Part shown: piece by piece, positions 22,001 to 37,000 of the stretch
How positions within the stretch are numbered: the stretch's first letter is position 1
How the letters are laid out: every line of letters starts with the position of its first letter
Origin: an uncultured Gemmatimonadaceae bacterium
GTDB taxonomy: Bacteria; Gemmatimonadota; Gemmatimonadetes; Gemmatimonadales; Gemmatimonadaceae
Length of the DNA stretch: 64,000 nucleotides
Reading direction: 5' to 3'
Assembly: GCA_963781585.1 (NCBI GenBank)
Contig: CAWAGQ010000006.1
Location: 438,084-502,083 of the forward strand
Program-made: the position numbers

Positions 22001-25000
22001 CGGGAATACGTGGGGGTACTTCACCGGCTGCGCGTTCGTGGCGGCGGGCCTCGCGATCGTCGTCGGCGTGTGGGCACGACTGGCGGCGGTGCTCGCGGCC
22101 GTGCAGGTGGGGCTGTTCACGCTCATCGTGTGGGTGCCCGTCGTCGCGGCCGGCCCCAACTCGTACCAATGGCAGGAGTTCGTGACCTCGTGGGCGATCA
22201 CGGCCGGCGCCTGGATGATCGCGGACTCCTACTAGGCCCCGGCTCGCCCGGCGATGGATGCCAGGGGGTCTGCCCTGCGGCAAACCCAGGCTCTCCGGCC
22301 GCTTCATGCTGTCCCCGGCGTCTACTCGGGCGGCGCAATGTCGTCCAGTTGGTCGAATCGCAGGTTGCTCACGCCCTCACCCCGACCGGCTTGCTTCGAT
22401 CGGCCAAGCCAGAGATAGGTCTGCCCCGATGTCCAGCGCGCGCGCTGCCAGGCTCGCTCCACGATCACGCCGGCGCGCGGCACCTCCTCCTCGTTGATGA
22501 AGAACGGCGGCGGCACCTCGGTGAGGAGACGGCCGCGCGCGCCGGGTGCTCCCGGCATTCGCGCGCGCTGCAACTGGATCTCCGACGTGCTTCCCGCGAG
22601 ATGGACGGGCAGAAACGGGATCCAGTTGCTCGGCACCGTGGTGCCGGCGACGTACCGGATTGCCGCCGTGCCCGCGGGAACAAACGGCGGCGGTGGCGGC
22701 GTGCCGATGTCGAGCTCGTCGCCGCGCACACCGGCGCCGGCGGCCGATGGCACGACCTTCTCCACCGCCCACACCATCTTCGCCGCCTCGTCGCGCAGGA
22801 AATTGACCTTTTCGATCGGGTCGCTCTCCAGCATCTGGGCGATCGAGGAGGCCAGATAGAACCTGCTCGACGCCGATGCGGCGCCGCCGCGATCGGTATT
22901 CTGGAACATCGCCCATCGGTGCCAGGTGGTGCCTTCGCTCCGGCCGGCCGGCCGGATCAGCGTCTCCACGCCGAACACGTCGGTTACCACGATGCCCTCT
23001 ACGCTGCACAGGGTATTGAACGGCATTGGAAATGGAAGCATGAACCAGTCGTTCGAGTAGATCAGCCCGAACTCCGCGAAGACCAGGTGCAGGAGTCCCG
23101 TCGGTGACACGCCGATCGCGCCGAAGTCCGTCTGGTTCTCCTCCATCTGCCAGAAGCGCGGATTGGGCATGCCCTTGAAGCTGAGTGGCGCCGGAATGAA
23201 CGACGACAGAACCTCGGCGTCGGGCGGGGCGGTCGGCGTCGTTTCCCCGTCCGCGATCATCGCCTGGCGCGAGTCCAGATCGAACGAGTACCAGTCGATG
23301 TGGCCCTGATAGTACTCGTCGGCCAGAAGGACGCTCTGCTGCCCGGCCGGCGTCGCGAGGCTGAATCCGTACTCGAGCTGCCGCGTCTTCCAGGCATTCT
23401 CGGCCGGCAATGACGGCTGGCTGTAGGTCCGCGCGAACCACGCGAGCAGGGGCGCCGCGAGGTCATCCAGGGCTGTCTTGTCCGCGCCTGCGATCGTGCC
23501 CTCGGCATCGAGCCACTCGCGAAAACGCGTGAGCGCGGGATTCACGCCCGGCGTGGTCATGTCGCGGTACATCGCGTAGCCGTTCCACCACCGCGTTCTG
23601 GCCGCGCCGTAGAGCTGCGTTCCGCTGTAGTCGTTAGGCTCGGGAGCGAAAACGAGCGGATACTGCGCGATCAGCGCGTCCCGGTGCGCGGAGACGAGCG
23701 CGGCACCGAGTTTCCAGTACGACCGCGCGAGTTCGACGGCGAGCCCGAGGTCGCCGATGAGCATTTCGCGCTCGACGCGCGTCTCGATCGGGATCGTGTC
23801 GTCGTAACTCTGGACCGGCCCGGATCCGATCAACGCGCGGTCGACGTGCTGCTGCACGCTCAGGATTCGCGCGCCGATCGGCGTCGCGGCGTCCTCGCCC
23901 TGAAACTCGCCCATCTGCCACTGCCGCGTGAGCAGCCACATCGGGTCGCGCACCTCGGCGCGCAGGCTCCGGGTGAAGTCGGTGCTGCGCGGACTGGCCT
24001 CGAGCCGGTTGAACGCGGTCACCGTCGGGAGGCGGAACTCCGCCTCGTAGACGCTTTCGAGTGTGGCGATGGGAATGGCTGCGGTCATCGCGACCTCAGG
24101 TCAGGTTCGGATTGACGTAAAACGTCGTCAGCAGGGGCATCGCCGAGAGGTTGAGCCGATAATCCAGCGAGACGTTGAGCGCGAACTGCTGGAACTCCGC
24201 TATCACCGCCGGCAGAAGAACACCGAGCTCCGGGTTGGCCGCCCGCTGGTCGAGCAGCAGCGGCTCCACGGCGCGCATCTTCGCCCGGCGGAGGGTGTCG
24301 TTGAGGATTCCGACCAGCGCGTCCCAGCTCCAATGACCGGTCATTTCCGGAGGCACGGCGAGCAACAGCGCCTGCGGCGGCATGGCGTTCGGCCGATTGT
24401 AGTTGAAGGCCACACCGGTGCTCTGGTCCCGGGCCGGAATAGTCTCCGTCCACGAATCCACGAGAACACCGCTGCGCAGGGAACCGGCGGTGTACGCTGC
24501 GTCGCCGTGGGTGACGATCGACAGGGTATCGCTGGCGATGTCGTACGGCTCGCCGGTGGCGGGATCGGTGTCGGGAAGCCCAACGGCGAGCCAACTGTCC
24601 CGGGGGCGATAGGGAAGCTGCACCGCGCTCAGGTCGAGCGACGACGCGAACAGCGTTTCACGCAACAGGCGGATGCGTTCCCAGGCCGCGATCCTGGGGC
24701 GCACGTATGCGACGCCGCGAATCCACTCGTCTTCAGGTGTCGGCATCGCGAGCGTGTTCACGGCGTGATCGACGAGCTGCCCGTGATCGGCGTGCGATTG
24801 CATCAGCTCGCTCTCGTTGTCCAACGCGAATGCCGGGATCACCGGGAACGCGTCGCCGAGGATGGCTTTGCACGCGTCGCTCGCCAGGCCGACCGCCTTC
24901 TCGTTCGCGTCCGTGGCGGCGATGTCGGCGTCGGTGAGCGCCTTGTCGCTCGCCGCCCGGCGGGTGGCTGCTGCGTTCGCGGCGTCGATCGCCTGCGACA

Positions 25001-34000: not shown

Positions 34001-37000
34001 CAGCACGAACATCGGCGTGTCGCCCCAATTGATGCGGAGCGCCATGTCGCCGGTGAGCGTGAAGATGAGCAGCTTCGAATCGAACAGGCTCGCGTCGAAC
34101 GAGATGTACTTGTTCCCGAAGTCGACGACGCCCAGGAAGTTCACCTGAATGAGCAGGATCGGCTCGTCGGGATCGGGGAGCGCCGCCCGCAGCACCCCCA
34201 GGATCGCGAACATCGGGTTCGGAATGTCGAGCAGGAGTCCAAGCTCCAGCGTCAGAATGGACCCCGCCCATCCGATCTCGGCCATCGGCCCGAGCAGGAA
34301 GTGTCCCTCGGCGATCGGGAAGATCTGTTTGAGATCGCTGACGATGCGGGTGATGTTGGCGACGACGTCTTGCGGGAAGAGCACACTGTTGAGCGCCCCC
34401 GTCTTCACGCCGGCGCGCAACACGTCGATCCGCACCGTCCGGCTGAGCCCGAGCAGCCCGCCAACGCCGTTCAGCGAGAAGCCGAATCCCAGCTGGATCG
34501 GCGTGAACTCGGCGGTGATGATGATGAGGAGCGAGAACCCGTTGCTCCCGTCGGGCATCTTCGTGTCGATCAATCCCACGGCCTTGAGCGAGAACAGATC
34601 CTGGAACTCCAGCTCCAGCGCGCCGATGTACTCGCCCTTGTCGGTGTCGATGTAGAGGAAGCCCGCGCCCTTGATTCCGCCGGCGTCGATCGAGAGTCCG
34701 ACCCCGTTCGGCGGCTTGAAGTCGAAGTCGAGCTGCGTGGAGCCGCCGATGTTTCCGCTGTTGTCGCTCGGGAAGCTGAACCGCGCCGTGAGACCCATGT
34801 TCTGCACCACGGCGGTGAGCGGACCGAGCGCCGCCTTGATATCGGCGCCGAGCGAAATGGGCAGTTCGGTGACACCGGCGGCGTTCTGGCCGATCTTGAG
34901 CGTGAGGGTCAGGCCCTCGATCGAAACGGGACCGAGCTCGATGTGGACGGGCAGCTGAATCTCGAGCGCGCTGCTGCCCTGGAAGTAGAATCCGCGCGTG
35001 CTCGACACACCCATGAGGATTCCGAAATCGGCCTCGATCTTCGTGCCGGGAAGGATCCTGGCGAGGAATCCGTCGCCTTTCGTCGCGTCGATGACGATGC
35101 TGCCGCCGGTGATCTCTCCTTCGAGTGTGAGTTGGCTGGTCGCGTTGGTGCCGTTCCACGTGAGGTCCACGCCCGCCTCGAGGCGCAGCGACGCCATCTC
35201 GACGCGCCCGGCGCCGGCCTGGCCGAGCAGGATGATCGTGCTCTGGCCCGGCGGCGGATTGGCGATCCAGCGGCCGAAGATCTTGCCCTGGATCGTACCG
35301 GCGGCCGGCGGAATGATCGTCACGTCCAGTGCCGGCGACAGCGCGACGCCCGCCTCCAACGGCACCTGCGCGTTGACGCCGAACACGGCGCTCCACTGTT
35401 CGCGCGTCACTGTGTACGAGCCGCCGACGGTGAACAGGTACTTGAGCAGGAGCTGGAGGCCCGGTGGCACCATGTCGGTCCTGGCCGACAGCTCGAAGAA
35501 CAGTACGTCGAGCGTGTGCGGCGTGACGCCGGTGTCGAGCACCACCGGCATGCCGAGCGCCAGCATCACCTTGTTGAGCTTGTCCAGCAGCGCGGCGCCG
35601 TCGAAGTCGTCGTTCCCCCAGCCATACAGCGCGCGCAGCTGCTCGAGCGGATTGCTGAACGTCTTCGTCAGCCCGTCGACATGGAACGCCTTCCGGATGT
35701 ACGGCGGATTGACGGGATTCGTGGAGCCGACGTTCTGCGGGCTGCGCTCGATGACGCCGAACAATTCCAGCACCGCCGCCGCCGCGGGCGCCACACTCTC
35801 GACGTAGTTGACCAACAGGTAGTTGATCAGGTTCACGCTGAGATTGGCGACGAAGTCGCCGATGTCGATCGCGGGGAAGCTGCCGTGCGCGGTATCGATC
35901 GCGTGCGCGATGGCGTCGATGTCCCCGATCAGCTCGACGATCTGCTGGGTGAGATCGATCGCGGTGCCGATCGCGGCGCCCTCGTCGTCGGCGTCGATCT
36001 GCTGGATGAGCGTCTCGATCAGCCCCGGAACCGCCTCGAGCCGGGAGATCGCGTCGGTCAGCGCCGTCTGGAACTGCGGATTGCTGGCGAGCGATTCCGG
36101 GAACTGGATGCCGAGCTCGGCGAACAGCTCCAGAATCTGGCCGCTGCCGATACGCTCCTCGAGTGGCTTGATGACCTTCGCCAGCTCGAGCGCGATGACT
36201 TCCAGTGTCCCGGTCTGATTGTTCACGCGTCACCCATCAAACGGTCTGTACTGATTCGTGCACCCGCGCGTCCGGGCCGGCGTCTCCCGCGGCCGCCCGC
36301 TCCAGCATCTCCTCCACCGACGTGATCCCGCTCACGAGATGGAGAAGCGGTACGGTGTTCGCTGCGACCGCGGCCGCGAGCGCCGCGCTCCCCTGCTCCT
36401 GCAGCACCACCGACATTCGCAGTACGACATTCGCCGGCGACACGTCCGCGATCTCCGGCGGAATGCGATGTCCGGGCTCGCGCGCGCTCTTGATGAAGTG
36501 CCCGGTGAACGCGGGCCCCTGGTACCGATGCCAGGCGACCTTCACCTGGCGATTGTCATTGAGCAGCCGGTTGATCTCATCACCGTGTTCGCGGAACATC
36601 GCGAGCGCCGCGCGCCCGACCTCCAGGGTGTCCAGCACTCTCACGATGTCGTCGAGGTGGTCGGGACCGGGCGCCTGAAGCGGCTCGGCGACCGAAGCGC
36701 TGCCGAGCGGGATGGTTCCCGGGGTGCCGGAATTGATGATCGTGATCCCCATCGCCGCCGTGACGTCGGTGATGATGTTCGCAAAGCTGTCATTGGTATT
36801 CGTGTTGACGCCCCAGCACAGCCCGACCACCACGTTCTGGTCGTTGACCAGCGCCGAGCCGGAGTCGCCGAACCACTGGAAATGGTCGAAGCCGGCATCG
36901 GGAGCGATGTGGATCTGGTTCGCGCGGGCCGGAATCTGCTTGGCCGGATTTCCGGCGGTCGGCCCCTTCGGGTCGGTAACCGTGCCGGTCGTGAGGCCGG

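What a model noticed while it worked through the whole genome (the two positions that open the first line are those of the whole stretch)
22322..36226. Widespread four-gene cassette of giant uncharacterised proteins (DUF6603 + three orphan families)
g02442 (1143 aa, DUF6603), g02441 (1038 aa), g02440 (1859 aa, N-terminal 230-aa coiled coil) and g02439 (588 aa) form a tight co-directional cassette (gaps -4 to 8 nt) encoding ~4,600 residues, of which only the DUF6603 part has any family model. The same four genes in the same order occur in hundreds of species from at least ten phyla (Bacteroidota, Acidobacteriota, Gemmatimonadota, Pseudomonadota, Nitrospirota, Chloroflexota, Actinomycetota, Verrucomicrobiota, Ignavibacteriota, Deferribacterota) with unusually high conservation (35-47% median identity to this genome's copies; the 588-aa protein has over 100 invariant columns in 30 sequences). 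It is therefore a discrete, horizontally spread [...]
Evidence so far: Gene table call 83; Pfam at E<=0.01: only DUF6603 on g02442; PADLOC: only marginal coiled-coil hits on g02440; PDB sequence/profile searches at E<=1: 0 hits for g02439 profile, g02441, g02442; ESM Atlas no usable hit for g02439. Homologues: g02440 338 at E<=0.001 (listed ones mostly full-length, 39-76% id; call 89), g02439 978 at E<=1e-10, none of the 120 listed with Pfam, all named ones 'hypothetical'; alignment A3 mean column identity 65%. find_related_loci in GTDB species genomes: 576 confirmed loci (row limit reached), titles of the 80 kept span the phyla named. tblastn of own proteins on the 52 loci with full 10-kb flanks: g02439, g02440, g02441 in 52 of 52, g02442 in 51 of 52, same ord [...]
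(Added by a program. Inside this text positions count along the whole contig: contig position 438,084 is position 1 of the stretch shown here. "Call 12" and the like, gene names such as g00115 and contig names such as C1 are that model's own, and its searches are not shown. The text may have been shortened before it was handed on; [...] marks where a part breaks off. The agent that wrote the report below was given it as the finding of a first reader that could run no searches.)

Follow-up and report, generated by a model that had tools for sequence, protein, structure and literature searches.

The report
Giant-protein machine with swappable enzyme heads
Four huge, uncharacterised genes found in bacteria and archaea appear to build a membrane-engaging machine whose front end, an enzyme gene plus the first third of the first giant protein, is swapped as one unit, which suggests an unknown way of delivering or displaying enzymes.

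Summary
Four minus-strand genes (1143, 1038, 1859 and 588 aa; junctions -4, 6 and 7 nt) are real, and their order was kept wherever it could be tested: 59 of 59, 67 of 68 and 52 of 52 metagenome loci.

The unit is larger and modular. A same-strand gene lies directly upstream in 45 of 45 loci, and it varies between loci. Usually it is a leaderless enzyme of a kind that is normally secreted: here two trypsin-like proteases, elsewhere subtilases, M64, M14, PhoD, PLD, galactose oxidase or tyrosinase.

The first ~490 residues of the DUF6603 protein swap together with this gene. Two loci are 91-94% identical over the rest of the cassette but 29% identical in that head, and their enzymes are unrelated.

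AlphaFold (pLDDT 86) gives DUF6603 a helical head and about 30 amphipathic strands that resemble membrane beta-barrels and the apoB beta-belt. The 1038-aa protein has a very hydrophobic helical hairpin. I found no ATPase, signal peptide, phage link or immunity gene.

The cassette also lies on Streptomyces and haloarchaeal plasmids. Natural fusions with an alpha/beta-hydrolase exist.

Best reading (about 0.4): a self-contained, membrane-inserting machine that delivers or displays enzymes. No paper mentions it. This scan has noted the same cassette on other DNA.

The parts
38762..40726 (-). 654-aa trypsin-like serine protease. It has a poly-Ser linker (~355-425) and a Cys-rich C-terminal domain. 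Possible second cargo; it lacks the shared C-terminal domain.
   Evidence: phrog_20754 'protease' E 2.9e-27. Trypsin_2 E 0.0045, below cut-off. GDSGS at 295 and a CCCCC run at 193. 35% identical to the 568-aa protease. Not matched by the C-terminal-domain jackhmmer search. Kept upstream only in close relatives L001 and L002.
38077..38751 (-). 224-aa ORF between the two proteases; function unknown; membership uncertain.
   Evidence: No family in Pfam, NCBIfam, PADLOC or PHROGs. Found in L001 (70% identity) but not in L002.
36237..37943 (-). Cargo gene: trypsin-like serine protease with a C-terminal ~150-aa shared domain. The ORF is 568 aa from its first GTG; the real start is probably M91 at 37673 (478 aa). 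It ends 10 nt before the DUF6603 gene.
   Evidence: phrog_20754 E 1.9e-34, residues 108-405. GDSGS at 359 and CCCCC at 245. Homologues in other loci align from residue ~91. The residues before M91 are Arg/Ala-rich.
36240..36758 (-). Shared C-terminal domain of the cargo protease (residues ~396-568): a candidate docking or targeting module.
   Evidence: jackhmmer finds it at the C-terminus of 24 upstream proteins, both trypsin-like and S8 subtilase. The 17-sequence alignment has invariant E, L, W and R, including a WHR motif.
34757..36226 (-). Variable 'head' of the DUF6603 protein (residues 1-~490): a helical bundle (7-155) followed by a beta-rich region.
   Evidence: AF2 secondary structure. 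Identity falls to ~20% before window residue ~484-506 in pairs that are >=80-90% identical after it. Head identity follows cargo class at equal core identity. Cargo class needs 12 changes on the head tree and 17 on the core tree.
32795..34756 (-). Constant part of the DUF6603 protein (residues ~491-1143): an amphipathic beta-barrel or belt (to ~878) plus a C-terminal domain.
   Evidence: pLDDT mostly above 90. All 50 top VIA rows are membrane beta-barrels, Z 8.2-13.2, model range ~506-878. ApoB-100 beta-belt Z 13.8. Foldseek: SlpA/SDBC 3.7e-5, FimD, LptD, SprA, PapC. The strands alternate a hydrophobic and a polar face.
29682..32798 (-). 1038-aa chassis protein: an N-terminal Ig-like beta-sandwich region, a helical middle and a C-terminal alpha/beta domain.
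   Evidence: AF2 pLDDT 71, pTM 0.46. No Foldseek hit at E<=1e-3 in PDB or BFVD. VIA Z<=6.3. 52-56% identity across phyla. A natural DUF6603::1038 fusion exists, P0274.
30996..31145 (-). Hydrophobic helical hairpin of the 1038-aa protein (residues 552-601).
   Evidence: Kyte-Doolittle 19-residue window peak of 3.71. It is the only such segment in the four proteins. AF2 helices 559-579 and 582-617. The consensus of 55 sequences is hydrophobic here.
24096..29675 (-). 1859-aa chassis protein: an N-terminal ~240-aa coiled coil (28956-29675) followed by ~1600 conserved residues with no assignable family.
   Evidence: SMC/Rad50/JetC-type coiled-coil hits on residues ~10-240 only. 48-sequence alignment with 93 invariant columns. 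The haloarchaeal homologue carries an inserted halobacterial surface domain.
22322..24088 (-). 588-aa chassis protein, the last gene of the unit.
   Evidence: 0 PDB hits at E<=1 with a 46-sequence profile. 67 invariant columns. No conserved gene follows it in 41 loci with room. The haloarchaeal homologue has a C-terminal lamin-tail domain.

Best explanation
The locus encodes a modular machine that engages a membrane and handles enzymes.

Constant chassis: residues ~491-1143 of the DUF6603 protein plus the 1038-, 1859- and 588-aa proteins.
Exchangeable front end: one or more leaderless enzymes (here two trypsin-like proteases) plus the matching first ~490 residues of the DUF6603 protein.

Proposed working:
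1. The enzyme is held on the head. It is either bound non-covalently (for the serine proteases, perhaps through their shared C-terminal domain) or fused to it, as in the alpha/beta-hydrolase forms.
2. The amphipathic ~30-strand sheet of DUF6603 and the hydrophobic hairpin of the 1038-aa protein insert into a lipid bilayer.
3. The enzyme is thereby passed across, or fixed onto, a membrane that need not be the producer's own. The machine would then be a self-contained polymorphic effector or toxin delivery complex.

In logic it resembles Tc toxins, binary AB toxins, or T6SS spikes with 'cargo' versus 'specialised' effectors. It is not related to any of them.

Shown: the modular anatomy, the head swap, the predicted lipid-facing fold, the enzyme catalogue, the fusions, and presence in Archaea, monoderm and diderm bacteria.
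Inferred: binding of cargo to the head, membrane insertion, the direction of transport, and the target.
For: 1. A variable enzyme gene sits at a fixed place.
- A same-strand ORF lies directly upstream of DUF6603 in 45 of 45 metagenome loci with room.
- Among 42 non-duplicate loci, 17 are serine proteases: 8 S8 subtilases, 5 with a trypsin/Nal1 hit at E<=1e-3, and 4 placed with them only by the shared C-terminal-domain cluster.
- The rest: M64 3, PhoD-like 3 (one only at E 0.019), galactose-oxidase-like 1, PLD 1, M14 1, an AraC regulator 1, and no family 15.
- In named genomes: M64 x1-3, galactose oxidase/kelch, PhoD and tyrosinase.
- The haloarchaeal plasmid carries a PhoD-like gene there.
- None of the 16 upstream proteins whose N-termini I printed shows a signal peptide, except L007_625.

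2. The head swaps with the enzyme.
- L095 versus L098: last 640 aa of DUF6603 93.7% identical, 1038-aa protein 90.6%, 1859-aa 92.2%, 588-aa 91.3%. The first 470 aa of DUF6603 are 28.7% identical and the upstream genes are unrelated.
- The breakpoint lies at window residue ~484-506 in all 10 closest different-cargo pairs.
- At core identity above 0.7, head identity is 0.54-0.60 for same-class pairs (n=50) and 0.21-0.23 for different-class pairs (n=19).
- Cargo class needs 12 changes on the head tree (11 is the minimum for 12 classes) and 17 on the core tree. Label shuffles give a mean of 22.4 and a minimum of 19.

3. Two protease folds share one domain. A ~150-aa C-terminal domain is common to trypsin-like and S8 upstream proteins: 24 proteins.

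4. Natural fusions exist.
- 20 of 85 DUF6603 proteins longer than 2000 aa carry an alpha/beta-hydrolase or PGAP1-like domain.
- The domain lies ~1000 residues N-terminal of DUF6603 in 5 of 5 such proteins checked.
- One protein is a full DUF6603::1038-aa fusion.

5. The fold looks lipid-facing.
- AF2 pLDDT 86.2.
- All 50 top VIA rows are membrane beta-barrels, Z 8.2-13.2. ApoB-100 beta-belt Z 13.8. Six Foldseek hits at E<=1e-3, all giant outer-membrane barrels.
- Most of the 30 strands have one face at mean KD about +2 to +4 and the other at about -1 to -2.5 in a 90-sequence profile.
- The hairpin of the 1038-aa protein peaks at KD 3.71.

6. It does not depend on the producer's envelope. The four genes occur in order in a Streptomyces (monoderm) and a Salinigranum (archaeal) plasmid.

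7. Archaeal homologues have gained surface-type domains: a halobacterial surface domain and a lamin-tail domain.

8. The cargo enzymes look active. GDSG-type serine motifs are present in all 16 trypsin-like cargo proteins.
Against: - No ATPase or other energy module is seen in the four proteins. The only match to [AG]xxxxGK[ST], GRRPLGKT at DUF6603 residue 1046, is weak.
- No signal peptides and no lysis or release genes were noted, so how the complex would leave the cell is unknown.
- No small immunity-like gene accompanies the enzymes. That is unlike antibacterial polymorphic toxins.
- Many of the enzymes (PhoD, galactose oxidase, tyrosinase, M64) look more like scavenging exoenzymes than toxins.
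- The barrel is only a prediction. TM-scores to real barrels are ~0.13 and rmsd is 10-15 A. I could not see which face of the sheet is hydrophobic.
- Head and cargo may co-vary merely because they are adjacent. The head of the archaeal PhoD-linked copy is not closest to bacterial PhoD-linked heads; none is among its top 8 hits.
- The shared C-terminal domain is absent from the M64, PhoD, galactose-oxidase and other classes at this sensitivity.
- The DUF6603::1038 fusion is a single record.
- The 1859- and 588-aa proteins remain without any fold.
Confidence: 0.4

Rival explanations
1. A producer-side export or display apparatus. The four proteins sit in the producer's own envelope and export, or anchor at the cell surface, leaderless exoenzymes for feeding. 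They would work as a cellulosome-like or type-1/type-9-like system, with the head and C-terminal domain acting as a docking pair.
For: - The enzyme classes are typical secreted scavenging enzymes that here lack leaders.
- There are no immunity genes.
- Archaeal homologues of the 1859- and 588-aa proteins carry surface-type domains.
- The hydrophobic hairpin could be a co-translationally inserted anchor.
- Cargo carries a C-terminal shared domain, as in type 1 and type 9 secretion.
Against: - One apparatus would have to work in diderm bacteria, monoderm Streptomyces and S-layer archaea.
- A beta-barrel has no home in the latter two envelopes.
- No ATPase or proton-motive-force motor is present.
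- DUF6603 has no signal peptide or C-terminal beta-signal.
Confidence: 0.25
2. A conflict or defence system that acts inside the producer, for example abortive infection. The giant proteins sense invasion and damage the cell's own membrane, and the variable enzymes are effectors or sensors.
For: - Patchy distribution: 7 of 301 genomes in the phylum.
- Plasmid and integrase-flanked copies.
- A rapidly swapping module.
- Membrane-active predicted elements.
- Giant proteins with coiled coils are common in defence systems.
Against: - PADLOC gives only marginal coiled-coil hits, E>=2e-4.
- No nuclease, NTPase or other sensor domain is present.
- Tyrosinase, galactose oxidase, PhoD and M64 are not known defence effectors.
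- No relative is found in 2.9 million viral contigs.
- The window neighbourhood holds transporters, glycosyltransferases and LigD, not a defence island.
Confidence: 0.1
3. A lipid-handling or compartment-forming assembly. The amphipathic sheet wraps a lipid core, like an apolipoprotein belt, or lines a lipid conduit. The hairpin sits in a monolayer. The enzymes are packaged with or on that particle, which could be a vesicle, a droplet or a nanocompartment.
For: - The best single structural row is the apoB-100 beta-belt: Z 13.8, 265 aligned residues.
- The strands are amphipathic.
- A 50-residue hydrophobic hairpin resembles monotopic lipid-droplet proteins. That resemblance is recalled, not tested.
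- A cargo gene directly upstream with a C-terminal tag is also the encapsulin arrangement (recalled).
Against: - Z 13.8 is tied with dozens of porins.
- No vitellogenin-type or HK97-type domain is found.
- Nothing links the loci to lipid metabolism.
- The surface-type domains in archaeal homologues point outward.
Confidence: 0.1

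Closest known systems
Tc (ABC) toxin complexes (TcA/TcB/TcC)
   Same: Several giant leaderless proteins encoded in a row. 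No ATPase. A membrane-inserting translocator plus an exchangeable enzyme part. Spread by horizontal transfer. The hairpin of the 1038-aa protein aligns weakly to TcdA1 pore helices (Z 4.1).
   Different: No VRP1, TcA, SpvB or RHS family hit. Foldseek rows for Tc proteins are not significant: E ~1 for the 1038-aa protein and 4e-3 with probability 0.13 for DUF6603. Here the variable enzyme is a separate upstream gene or is fused N-terminally, not a C-terminal hypervariable region inside an RHS cocoon. The predicted membrane element is a beta-sheet, not an alpha-helical channel.
T6SS/eCIS spike proteins with 'cargo' versus 'specialised' (fused) effectors
   Same: The same two ways of attaching an effector are seen: non-covalently bound products of neighbouring genes, and fusions. 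The carrier's variable end co-varies with the effector.
   Different: No tube, sheath, baseplate, VgrG, PAAR or AAA+ ATPase hit in Pfam or PHROGs. No relative in viral contigs.
Binary AB toxins such as anthrax PA with LF/EF
   Same: Unrelated enzymes share one docking domain, and the predicted carrier is a beta-barrel.
   Different: The carrier here is a single-chain ~30-strand sheet within a four-protein, ~4600-residue chassis. There is no sequence or fold match to PA-type proteins in any search. The comparison is recalled, not tested.
Giant outer-membrane beta-barrels (SlpA/SDBC, LptD, FimD/PapC ushers, SprA of type 9 secretion)
   Same: These are the best structural matches of the DUF6603 constant part: Foldseek 3.7e-5 to 4.3e-4, VIA Z up to 13.6. 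Strand length and amphipathicity are similar. SlpA also has an N-terminal helical part (recalled).
   Different: DUF6603 has no signal peptide and no terminal beta-signal. It occurs in organisms without an outer membrane. TM-scores are only ~0.13.
Pfam DUF6603 (PF20248) proteins
   Same: The first protein is a full-length member (E 8e-134).
   Different: The family has no described function, and no paper holds 'DUF6603' or 'PF20248'. The Pfam domain (427-997) straddles the variable/constant boundary found here at ~490.

Membership tests
Pfam DUF6603 (PF20248) | Match to the family profile above the gathering score | tested here: met
   447 bits against a cut-off of 27, profile positions 1-501 of 502, protein residues 427-997.
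Tc (ABC) toxin complex | TcA-type subunit (VRP1/TcA families) and an RHS-repeat TcB/TcC cocoon | tested here: not met
   No such Pfam or NCBIfam hit on any of the 7 proteins of the locus at E<=0.01.
Tc (ABC) toxin complex | Fold similarity to the TcA channel or the TcB/TcC shell | tested here: inconclusive
   Only weak rows: 6rwb_A and 5lki_A at E ~1, Z 3.6-4.1 on the hairpin, 4o9x at E 4e-3 with probability 0.13.
BAM-dependent outer-membrane beta-barrel proteins | N-terminal Sec signal peptide | tested here: not met
   No hydrophobic N-terminal segment. The N-terminus reads VNNQTGTLEVIALELAK. The consensus N-terminus of 90 relatives likewise lacks one.
BAM-dependent outer-membrane beta-barrel proteins | Producer has an outer membrane | tested here: not met
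   The full cassette occurs in Streptomyces europaeiscabiei and in the archaeon Salinigranum marinum.
BAM-dependent outer-membrane beta-barrel proteins | Closed antiparallel amphipathic barrel fold | tested here: inconclusive
   All 50 top VIA rows are such barrels, Z 8.2-13.2, but rmsd is 10-15 A and TM ~0.13. The strands are amphipathic. Closure and the orientation of the hydrophobic face could not be inspected.
Type 9 secretion (SprA translocon plus CTD cargo) | Cargo with an N-terminal Sec signal | tested here: not met
   No signal peptide on the cargo proteins printed.
Type 9 secretion (SprA translocon plus CTD cargo) | Restriction to Bacteroidota | tested here: not met
   The cassette is found in at least 5 phyla and in Archaea.
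Type 9 secretion (SprA translocon plus CTD cargo) | PorL/M-type motor | not tested
   No such family appeared among the window proteins scanned with Pfam and NCBIfam. I did not search specifically for Por/Gld genes.
T6SS / extracellular contractile injection systems | Tube, sheath, baseplate, spike and AAA+ ATPase genes | tested here: not met
   No Pfam or PHROGs hit of these kinds in the 18 neighbouring proteins scanned.
Known anti-phage defence systems (PADLOC-DB 2.0) | Match to a defence protein model | tested here: not met
   Only JetC, LmuB and DruC coiled-coil matches at E 2e-4 to 7e-3 on residues 13-238 of the 1859-aa protein. The other 8 proteins have none.
Apolipoprotein B / large lipid transfer proteins | Amphipathic beta-belt | tested here: inconclusive
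   9coo_A Z 13.8 and 9bde_A Z 12.1, tied with porins.
Apolipoprotein B / large lipid transfer proteins | N-terminal vitellogenin-type domain | tested here: not met
   No vitellogenin-type Pfam hit.
Chymotrypsin-fold serine peptidases (the two upstream genes) | His-Asp-Ser catalytic triad on a trypsin-like fold | tested here: inconclusive
   phrog_20754 'protease' E 1.9e-34 and 2.9e-27. Pfam Trypsin_2 and Nal1_C are below cut-off. GDSGS is present, and candidate His and Asp were seen by eye in the sequence. No structure was made.

The most novel reading that the evidence does not exclude
This is a previously unrecognised class of protein-delivery nanomachine, shared by Bacteria and Archaea. A leaderless, self-inserting giant beta-barrel translocon sits on a four-protein chassis and needs no ATPase. 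Exchangeable heads load it with different lytic or oxidative enzymes, which it carries into or onto other cells. It would be, in effect, a new 'type' of secretion or toxin system, unrelated to types 1-11, Tc toxins or contractile injection systems.
Probability: 0.3. Interest if true: 0.95.

Novelty: categorically new. Interest (0 to 1): 0.82.

Why it matters
Thousands of genomes and metagenome contigs from soil, water and sediment carry this ~14-kb cassette. They include Actinomycetota and haloarchaea. It encodes ~4600 residues with no known function and no literature.

If it is a delivery or display machine, three things follow:
- It would add a new principle of protein export or intercellular attack, one that works regardless of envelope type.
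- It would explain how many leaderless 'secreted-type' enzymes leave cells.
- It would offer a naturally modular scaffold (swap the head and the enzyme together) for engineering.

The head-swap boundary at about residue 490 of DUF6603 gives experimenters a precise place to cut and exchange modules.

Tried and rejected
- Complex prediction: DUF6603 head (1-480, 17-row alignment) with the shared C-terminal domain (175 aa, 17 rows). No verdict: scores 0.33, 0.23, 0.30 against a mark of 0.32. This counts neither for nor against binding.
- Fold searches with the 1038-aa model. No Foldseek hit at E<=1e-3 in PDB or BFVD. VIA wide and the second look give only helical-hairpin and Ig-like rows, Z<=6.3.
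- ESM Atlas. The 1038-aa protein gives only unnamed clusters and has no model. The Atlas model of a 588-aa homologue has pLDDT 0.25, so its structural rows are meaningless.
- PDB profile searches:
  - A3 (1859-aa protein): coiled-coil hits only.
  - A4 (588-aa protein): 0 hits.
  - A1 (1038-aa protein): 1 hit at E 0.5.
  - A2 (DUF6603): helical-bundle noise.
  - Two unknown cargo families, A7 and A8: 0 hits each.
- Pfam at E<=0.5 on 19 unassigned upstream proteins added nothing reliable.
- hhalign of profiles A1, A3 and A4 against the partner proteins of a different DUF6603 cassette (G103): probability <=1.2%.
- Promoter and terminator scan: 0 promoter-like sites, and terminator-like sites at chance level.
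- Conserved downstream gene: none in 41 loci. The 191-aa ORF at 21732-22307 looks spurious.
- Viral contigs: none of the 37 pattern matches encodes a relative.
- Sequencing runs: none was listed, and no RNA holder was listed.
- Papers: 0 with 'DUF6603' and 0 with 'PF20248'. A five-term search on polymorphic toxin, beta-barrel, cargo, novel secretion system and Bacteroidota returned 10 listings: eight type-9-secretion papers and two general reviews. I saw only the listings and the starts of the abstracts.

Full report
**What is in the window.**

On the minus strand lie four abutting ORFs:
- 32795-36226, 1143 aa
- 29682-32798, 1038 aa
- 24096-29675, 1859 aa
- 22322-24088, 588 aa

The junctions are -4, +6 and +7 nt. 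Pfam recognises only DUF6603, on the first protein (E 8e-134, residues 427-997). NCBIfam, PADLOC and PHROGs add only marginal SMC/Rad50/JetC-type matches to the first ~240 residues of the 1859-aa protein, which form a coiled coil.

The window is G+C-rich (63-72%) and has long spurious antisense ORFs. The four frames are still real genes:
- The 1038-aa protein has 2438 homologues at E<=1e-3 among the 8000 candidates scored. Most are full length and 52-56% identical across phyla.
- The DUF6603 protein has 5390 cluster representatives at E<=1e-3 in 1.84 billion.

**Is the cassette conserved?**

Yes.
- A scan of species genomes with the single DUF6603 protein returned 7 loci from Gemmatimonadaceae, Bacteroidota and Ignavibacteriota. 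The other three genes follow in order in the 6 whose contig reaches far enough.
- An alignment-based scan of metagenome contigs confirmed 535 of 598 candidate stretches, and 80 loci were kept. In those 80, DUF6603 lies directly upstream of the 1038-aa gene in 59 of 59 testable loci. The 1859-aa gene follows in 67 of 68, and the 588-aa gene follows that in 52 of 52.
- Nothing conserved follows the 588-aa gene in 41 loci with room, and the next gene is often convergent. The unit therefore ends there.
- The 191-aa ORF just downstream in the window (21732-22307) has an Arg/His/Pro-rich composition, is antisense to a DoxX-like gene, and looks spurious.

The cassette is accessory.
- In the window's own phylum, DUF6603 was found in 7 of 301 genomes searched, G000 included.
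- Of the other six, two have the full cassette, one is cut by a contig end, and three carry DUF6603 in larger proteins (1593, 3295 and 1663 aa) without the other three genes.
- None of 37 pattern matches in viral contigs encodes a relative.

**The unit is bigger than four genes, and its front end varies.**

In the window, a 568-aa ORF ends 10 nt before the DUF6603 start. It probably begins at M91, giving 478 aa. It is a trypsin-like serine protease (phrog_20754 E 1.9e-34; GDSGS at residue 359). Further upstream lie a 224-aa unknown ORF and a second, 654-aa protease of the same family, which has a poly-Ser linker.

In other loci the same position, on the same strand and directly upstream, is always occupied: 45 of 45 metagenome loci with room. 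The occupants differ. Among 42 non-duplicate loci:

| Upstream gene | Loci |
|---|---|
| S8 subtilase | 8 |
| Trypsin/Nal1-like by Pfam at E<=1e-3 | 5 |
| Placed with these proteases only by the shared C-terminal-domain cluster | 4 |
| Peptidase M64 | 3 |
| PhoD-like phosphatase (one only at E 0.019) | 3 |
| Galactose-oxidase-like | 1 |
| Phospholipase D | 1 |
| M14 carboxypeptidase | 1 |
| AraC regulator | 1 |
| No family | 15 |

Twelve of the 45 loci counted, duplicates included, carry a ~340-aa unknown family next to a variable partner.

The named genomes add M64 in one to three tandem copies, galactose oxidase/kelch, PhoD, and a tyrosinase with a His-rich helper. A haloarchaeal plasmid has a PhoD-like gene there.

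Fifteen of the 16 upstream proteins whose N-termini I printed show no signal peptide. The exception, L007_625, lies well upstream of a degraded cassette. As a matter of general knowledge, these enzyme families are usually secreted.

**The swap boundary runs through the DUF6603 protein.**

I aligned 45 DUF6603 proteins, the window's included, and compared pairs.
- At core identity above 0.7, the first 345 residues are 54-60% identical when the upstream gene is of the same class (50 pairs). They are 21-23% identical when the class differs (19 pairs).
- In the ten closest different-class pairs, 40-residue-window identity sits at ~0.1-0.4 up to window residue ~460. It rises to 0.8-1.0 between ~484 and ~506.

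The clearest case is L095 (S8 subtilase) against L098 (a 374-aa unknown):

| Segment compared | Identity |
|---|---|
| DUF6603, last 640 residues | 93.7% |
| 1038-aa protein | 90.6% |
| 1859-aa protein | 92.2% |
| 588-aa protein | 91.3% |
| DUF6603, first 470 residues | 28.7% |
| Upstream proteins | unrelated |

I also built FastTree trees of 41 loci. Four near-duplicates were dropped (L045, L056, L066, L080), and L087 is missing because no intact DUF6603 ORF was called for it. With my 12 cargo classes, the class label needs 12 changes on the head tree, where 11 is the minimum possible. It needs 17 on the core tree. Label shuffles give a mean of 22.4 and a minimum of 19 on both.

Caveats:
- I defined the classes myself from Pfam hits and phmmer clusters.
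- Related loci are not independent.
- Adjacency alone could produce co-inheritance.
- The head of the archaeal PhoD-linked copy is not closest to the bacterial PhoD-linked heads.
- Heads of all classes still align over 408-476 residues at 23-30% identity. They are therefore one fold that has diverged strongly.

**Signs of physical linkage between enzyme and head.**

1. Trypsin-like and S8 proteases are unrelated folds, yet they share a ~150-aa C-terminal domain: 24 proteins by jackhmmer. The alignment has invariant E, L, W and R. The other classes lack it at this sensitivity.
2. Among 85 DUF6603 proteins longer than 2000 aa, 19 carry an Abhydrolase_1 domain and one a PGAP1-like domain. In the five I rescanned, the hydrolase lies at residues ~900-1100 and DUF6603 at ~2060-2780. 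The enzyme is thus fused on the N-terminal side, matching the gene order.
3. One 2186-aa protein (a single record) is an end-to-end fusion of DUF6603 with the 1038-aa protein: 43% identity over residues 1-1035 of the latter.

A complex prediction of head plus C-terminal domain gave no verdict and is not used as evidence.

**Folds.**

With a 90-sequence alignment, AlphaFold2 models the DUF6603 protein at mean pLDDT 86.2 and pTM 0.61. The model has:
- a helical bundle (7-155);
- a mixed region;
- about 30 long antiparallel strands (346-878);
- a C-terminal domain.

Structural matches:
- Foldseek gives six hits at E<=1e-3, all giant outer-membrane barrels: SlpA/SDBC 3.7e-5, FimD, two LptDE entries, SprA and PapC. 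TM-scores are only ~0.13.
- An independent all-against-representatives VIA search gives membrane beta-barrels in all 50 top rows, Z 8.2-13.2 with rmsd 10-15 A, covering model residues ~506-878.
- In a second look, the top row is the amphipathic beta-belt of apolipoprotein B-100 (Z 13.8), tied with porins.

In the 90-sequence profile, most of the 30 strands have one face with mean Kyte-Doolittle about +2 to +4 and the other about -1 to -2.5. I could not inspect coordinates. Whether the sheet closes, and which face points outward, is unknown. Either way, one face should contact lipid or a large hydrophobic surface.

The 1038-aa protein models less well (pLDDT 71). It shows Ig-like beta-sandwich matches for residues ~60-260 (Z 3-4.8) and a helical middle. 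Its two long helices, 559-617, overlap the only strongly hydrophobic segment in the four proteins (residues 552-601, KD peak 3.71). It also has a C-terminal alpha/beta domain with no significant match.

The 1859- and 588-aa proteins have no fold evidence.

No convincing Walker A motif occurs in the four proteins; the single pattern match, at DUF6603 residue 1046, is weak.

**Host range.**

tblastn of the 1038-aa protein against 72,556 plasmid records hits 13. They include four haloarchaeal plasmids and five Streptomyces plasmids, three of which are only partial hits. All four genes occur in order in two of them:
- Streptomyces europaeiscabiei plasmid (26-38% identity). The cassette lies between two sets of tyrosine recombinases.
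- Salinigranum marinum plasmid (28-38% identity).

In the archaeon, the 1859-aa homologue has an inserted halobacterial surface domain (NF045517, E 1.7e-15). The 588-aa homologue ends in a lamin-tail domain (E 1.7e-29). Both domain types are typical of surface or extracellular proteins (general knowledge).

A machine kept in diderm bacteria, monoderm bacteria and S-layer archaea cannot depend on the producer having an outer membrane.

**Interpretation.**

What is shown:
- a constant four-protein chassis;
- a front end (enzyme plus DUF6603 head) that is replaced as a unit;
- enzymes of secreted types without leaders, sometimes fused to the head;
- two predicted lipid-engaging elements;
- no energy module, no phage link and no immunity genes;
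- occurrence in both prokaryotic domains and on mobile DNA.

What I infer: the chassis inserts into a membrane and passes or presents the enzyme. Most likely this happens at another cell. It would then be a polymorphic effector-delivery complex that resembles Tc toxins, binary toxins or T6SS spike-effector pairs in logic but is unrelated to them (confidence about 0.4).

Rivals:
- A producer-side export or display system for scavenging enzymes (0.25). The enzyme types and the absence of immunity genes favour it. The host range and the lack of a motor count against it.
- An intracellular defence system (0.1).
- A lipid-particle or compartment assembly (0.1).

**Known or new?**

No defining feature of any of the following is met where I could test it (see Membership tests):
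- Tc toxins
- type 9 secretion
- BAM-dependent outer-membrane proteins
- contractile injection systems
- PADLOC defence systems

No paper in the searchable library contains 'DUF6603' or 'PF20248'.

Earlier notes of this scan describe the same cassette on other DNA, with exchangeable enzyme or fibre-like modules and an archaeal copy. I had reached the variable-upstream-enzyme reading before reading them, and they are unchecked AI notes.

New in this report:
- the position of the swap boundary inside DUF6603;
- the tree comparison of head against core;
- the C-terminal domain shared by two protease folds;
- the hydrolase and 1038-aa fusions;
- the amphipathic-sheet analysis;
- verification of the four-gene order in Streptomyces and haloarchaeal plasmids.

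Noticed in passing
window 36237-37943 and 38762-40726; loci L022, L064, L071, and all S8 cargo genes: Both window proteases carry a run of five cysteines (CCCCC at residues 245 and 193). Three other trypsin-like cargo proteins have the same run, and the subtilase cargo proteins with an S8 Pfam hit (9 of 9, counting near-duplicate L080) have CCC. This is a poly-Cys motif in two unrelated protease folds tied to the same machine. It might be a metal site or a redox switch.
   Followed up: partly
L007:10001-23412 (Paraflavitalea speifideaquila chromosome): All four genes are present in order but broken into many tblastn pieces (4, 4, 8 and 2). No ORF exceeds ~430 aa in the region. The cassette is probably degraded in this genome, or the assembly has errors.
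   Followed up: partly
window 40730-43414 and 43102-44265: An 894-aa protein has mannosyltransferase (Mannosyl_trans3) and Methyltransf_24 domains. Its gene ends 3 nt before the 654-aa protease gene. Just upstream is a GT9-like gene. Both are kept upstream in the close relatives L001 and L002. Whether they belong to the operon, for example by glycosylating the Ser-rich linker, is open.
   Followed up: no
window 38762-40726, residues ~355-425: The 654-aa protease has a ~70-residue almost pure serine tract, followed by a Cys-rich C-terminal domain of ~225 residues with no family.
   Followed up: no
L014 (G103), L016 (G188), L009 (G273): DUF6603 also occurs in much larger proteins (3295, 1663 and 1593 aa). 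These are followed by a different set of unknown genes: 688+328+1314 aa in G103, and 357+1332 aa in G188. The G103 set was not detectably related to the window's three partners by hhalign. This looks like a second cassette architecture built on the same domain.
   Followed up: partly
L100:2777-6931 and 24199-27820 (Streptomyces europaeiscabiei plasmid): The cassette sits between two groups of tyrosine recombinase/integrase genes, one with a DUF6262 gene. A 652-aa pentapeptide-repeat protein follows it. It looks like a mobile island. Here the gene upstream of DUF6603 is divergent, so no co-directional cargo gene is present.
   Followed up: no
loci L041, L043, L049, L062, L063, L065, L068, L088 (upstream of DUF6603): A conserved ~330-348-aa family with no Pfam or PDB match has 82 invariant columns in 7 sequences. 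It accompanies variable partner genes of ~400-700 aa. One partner family has an S-x-x-K-like stretch that recalls serine beta-lactamase/PBP motifs (recalled, not tested). The ~340-aa family could be an adaptor or chaperone for that cargo class.
   Followed up: partly
window 44480-46909 (-), 47231-49705 (+), 49846-52620 (-): Beyond the glycosyltransferase genes upstream of the cassette lie two divergently oriented MacB/FtsX-type permease genes and a full-length LigD (phosphoesterase, ligase and primase-polymerase domains). This is ordinary chromosomal context, not a defence or phage island.
   Followed up: no
L005:2798-4074: In a Cyclobacteriaceae locus, a LuxR-type regulator and a NusG-like gene precede the two M64 cargo genes and the cassette. 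This would fit anti-termination control of a very long operon.
   Followed up: no
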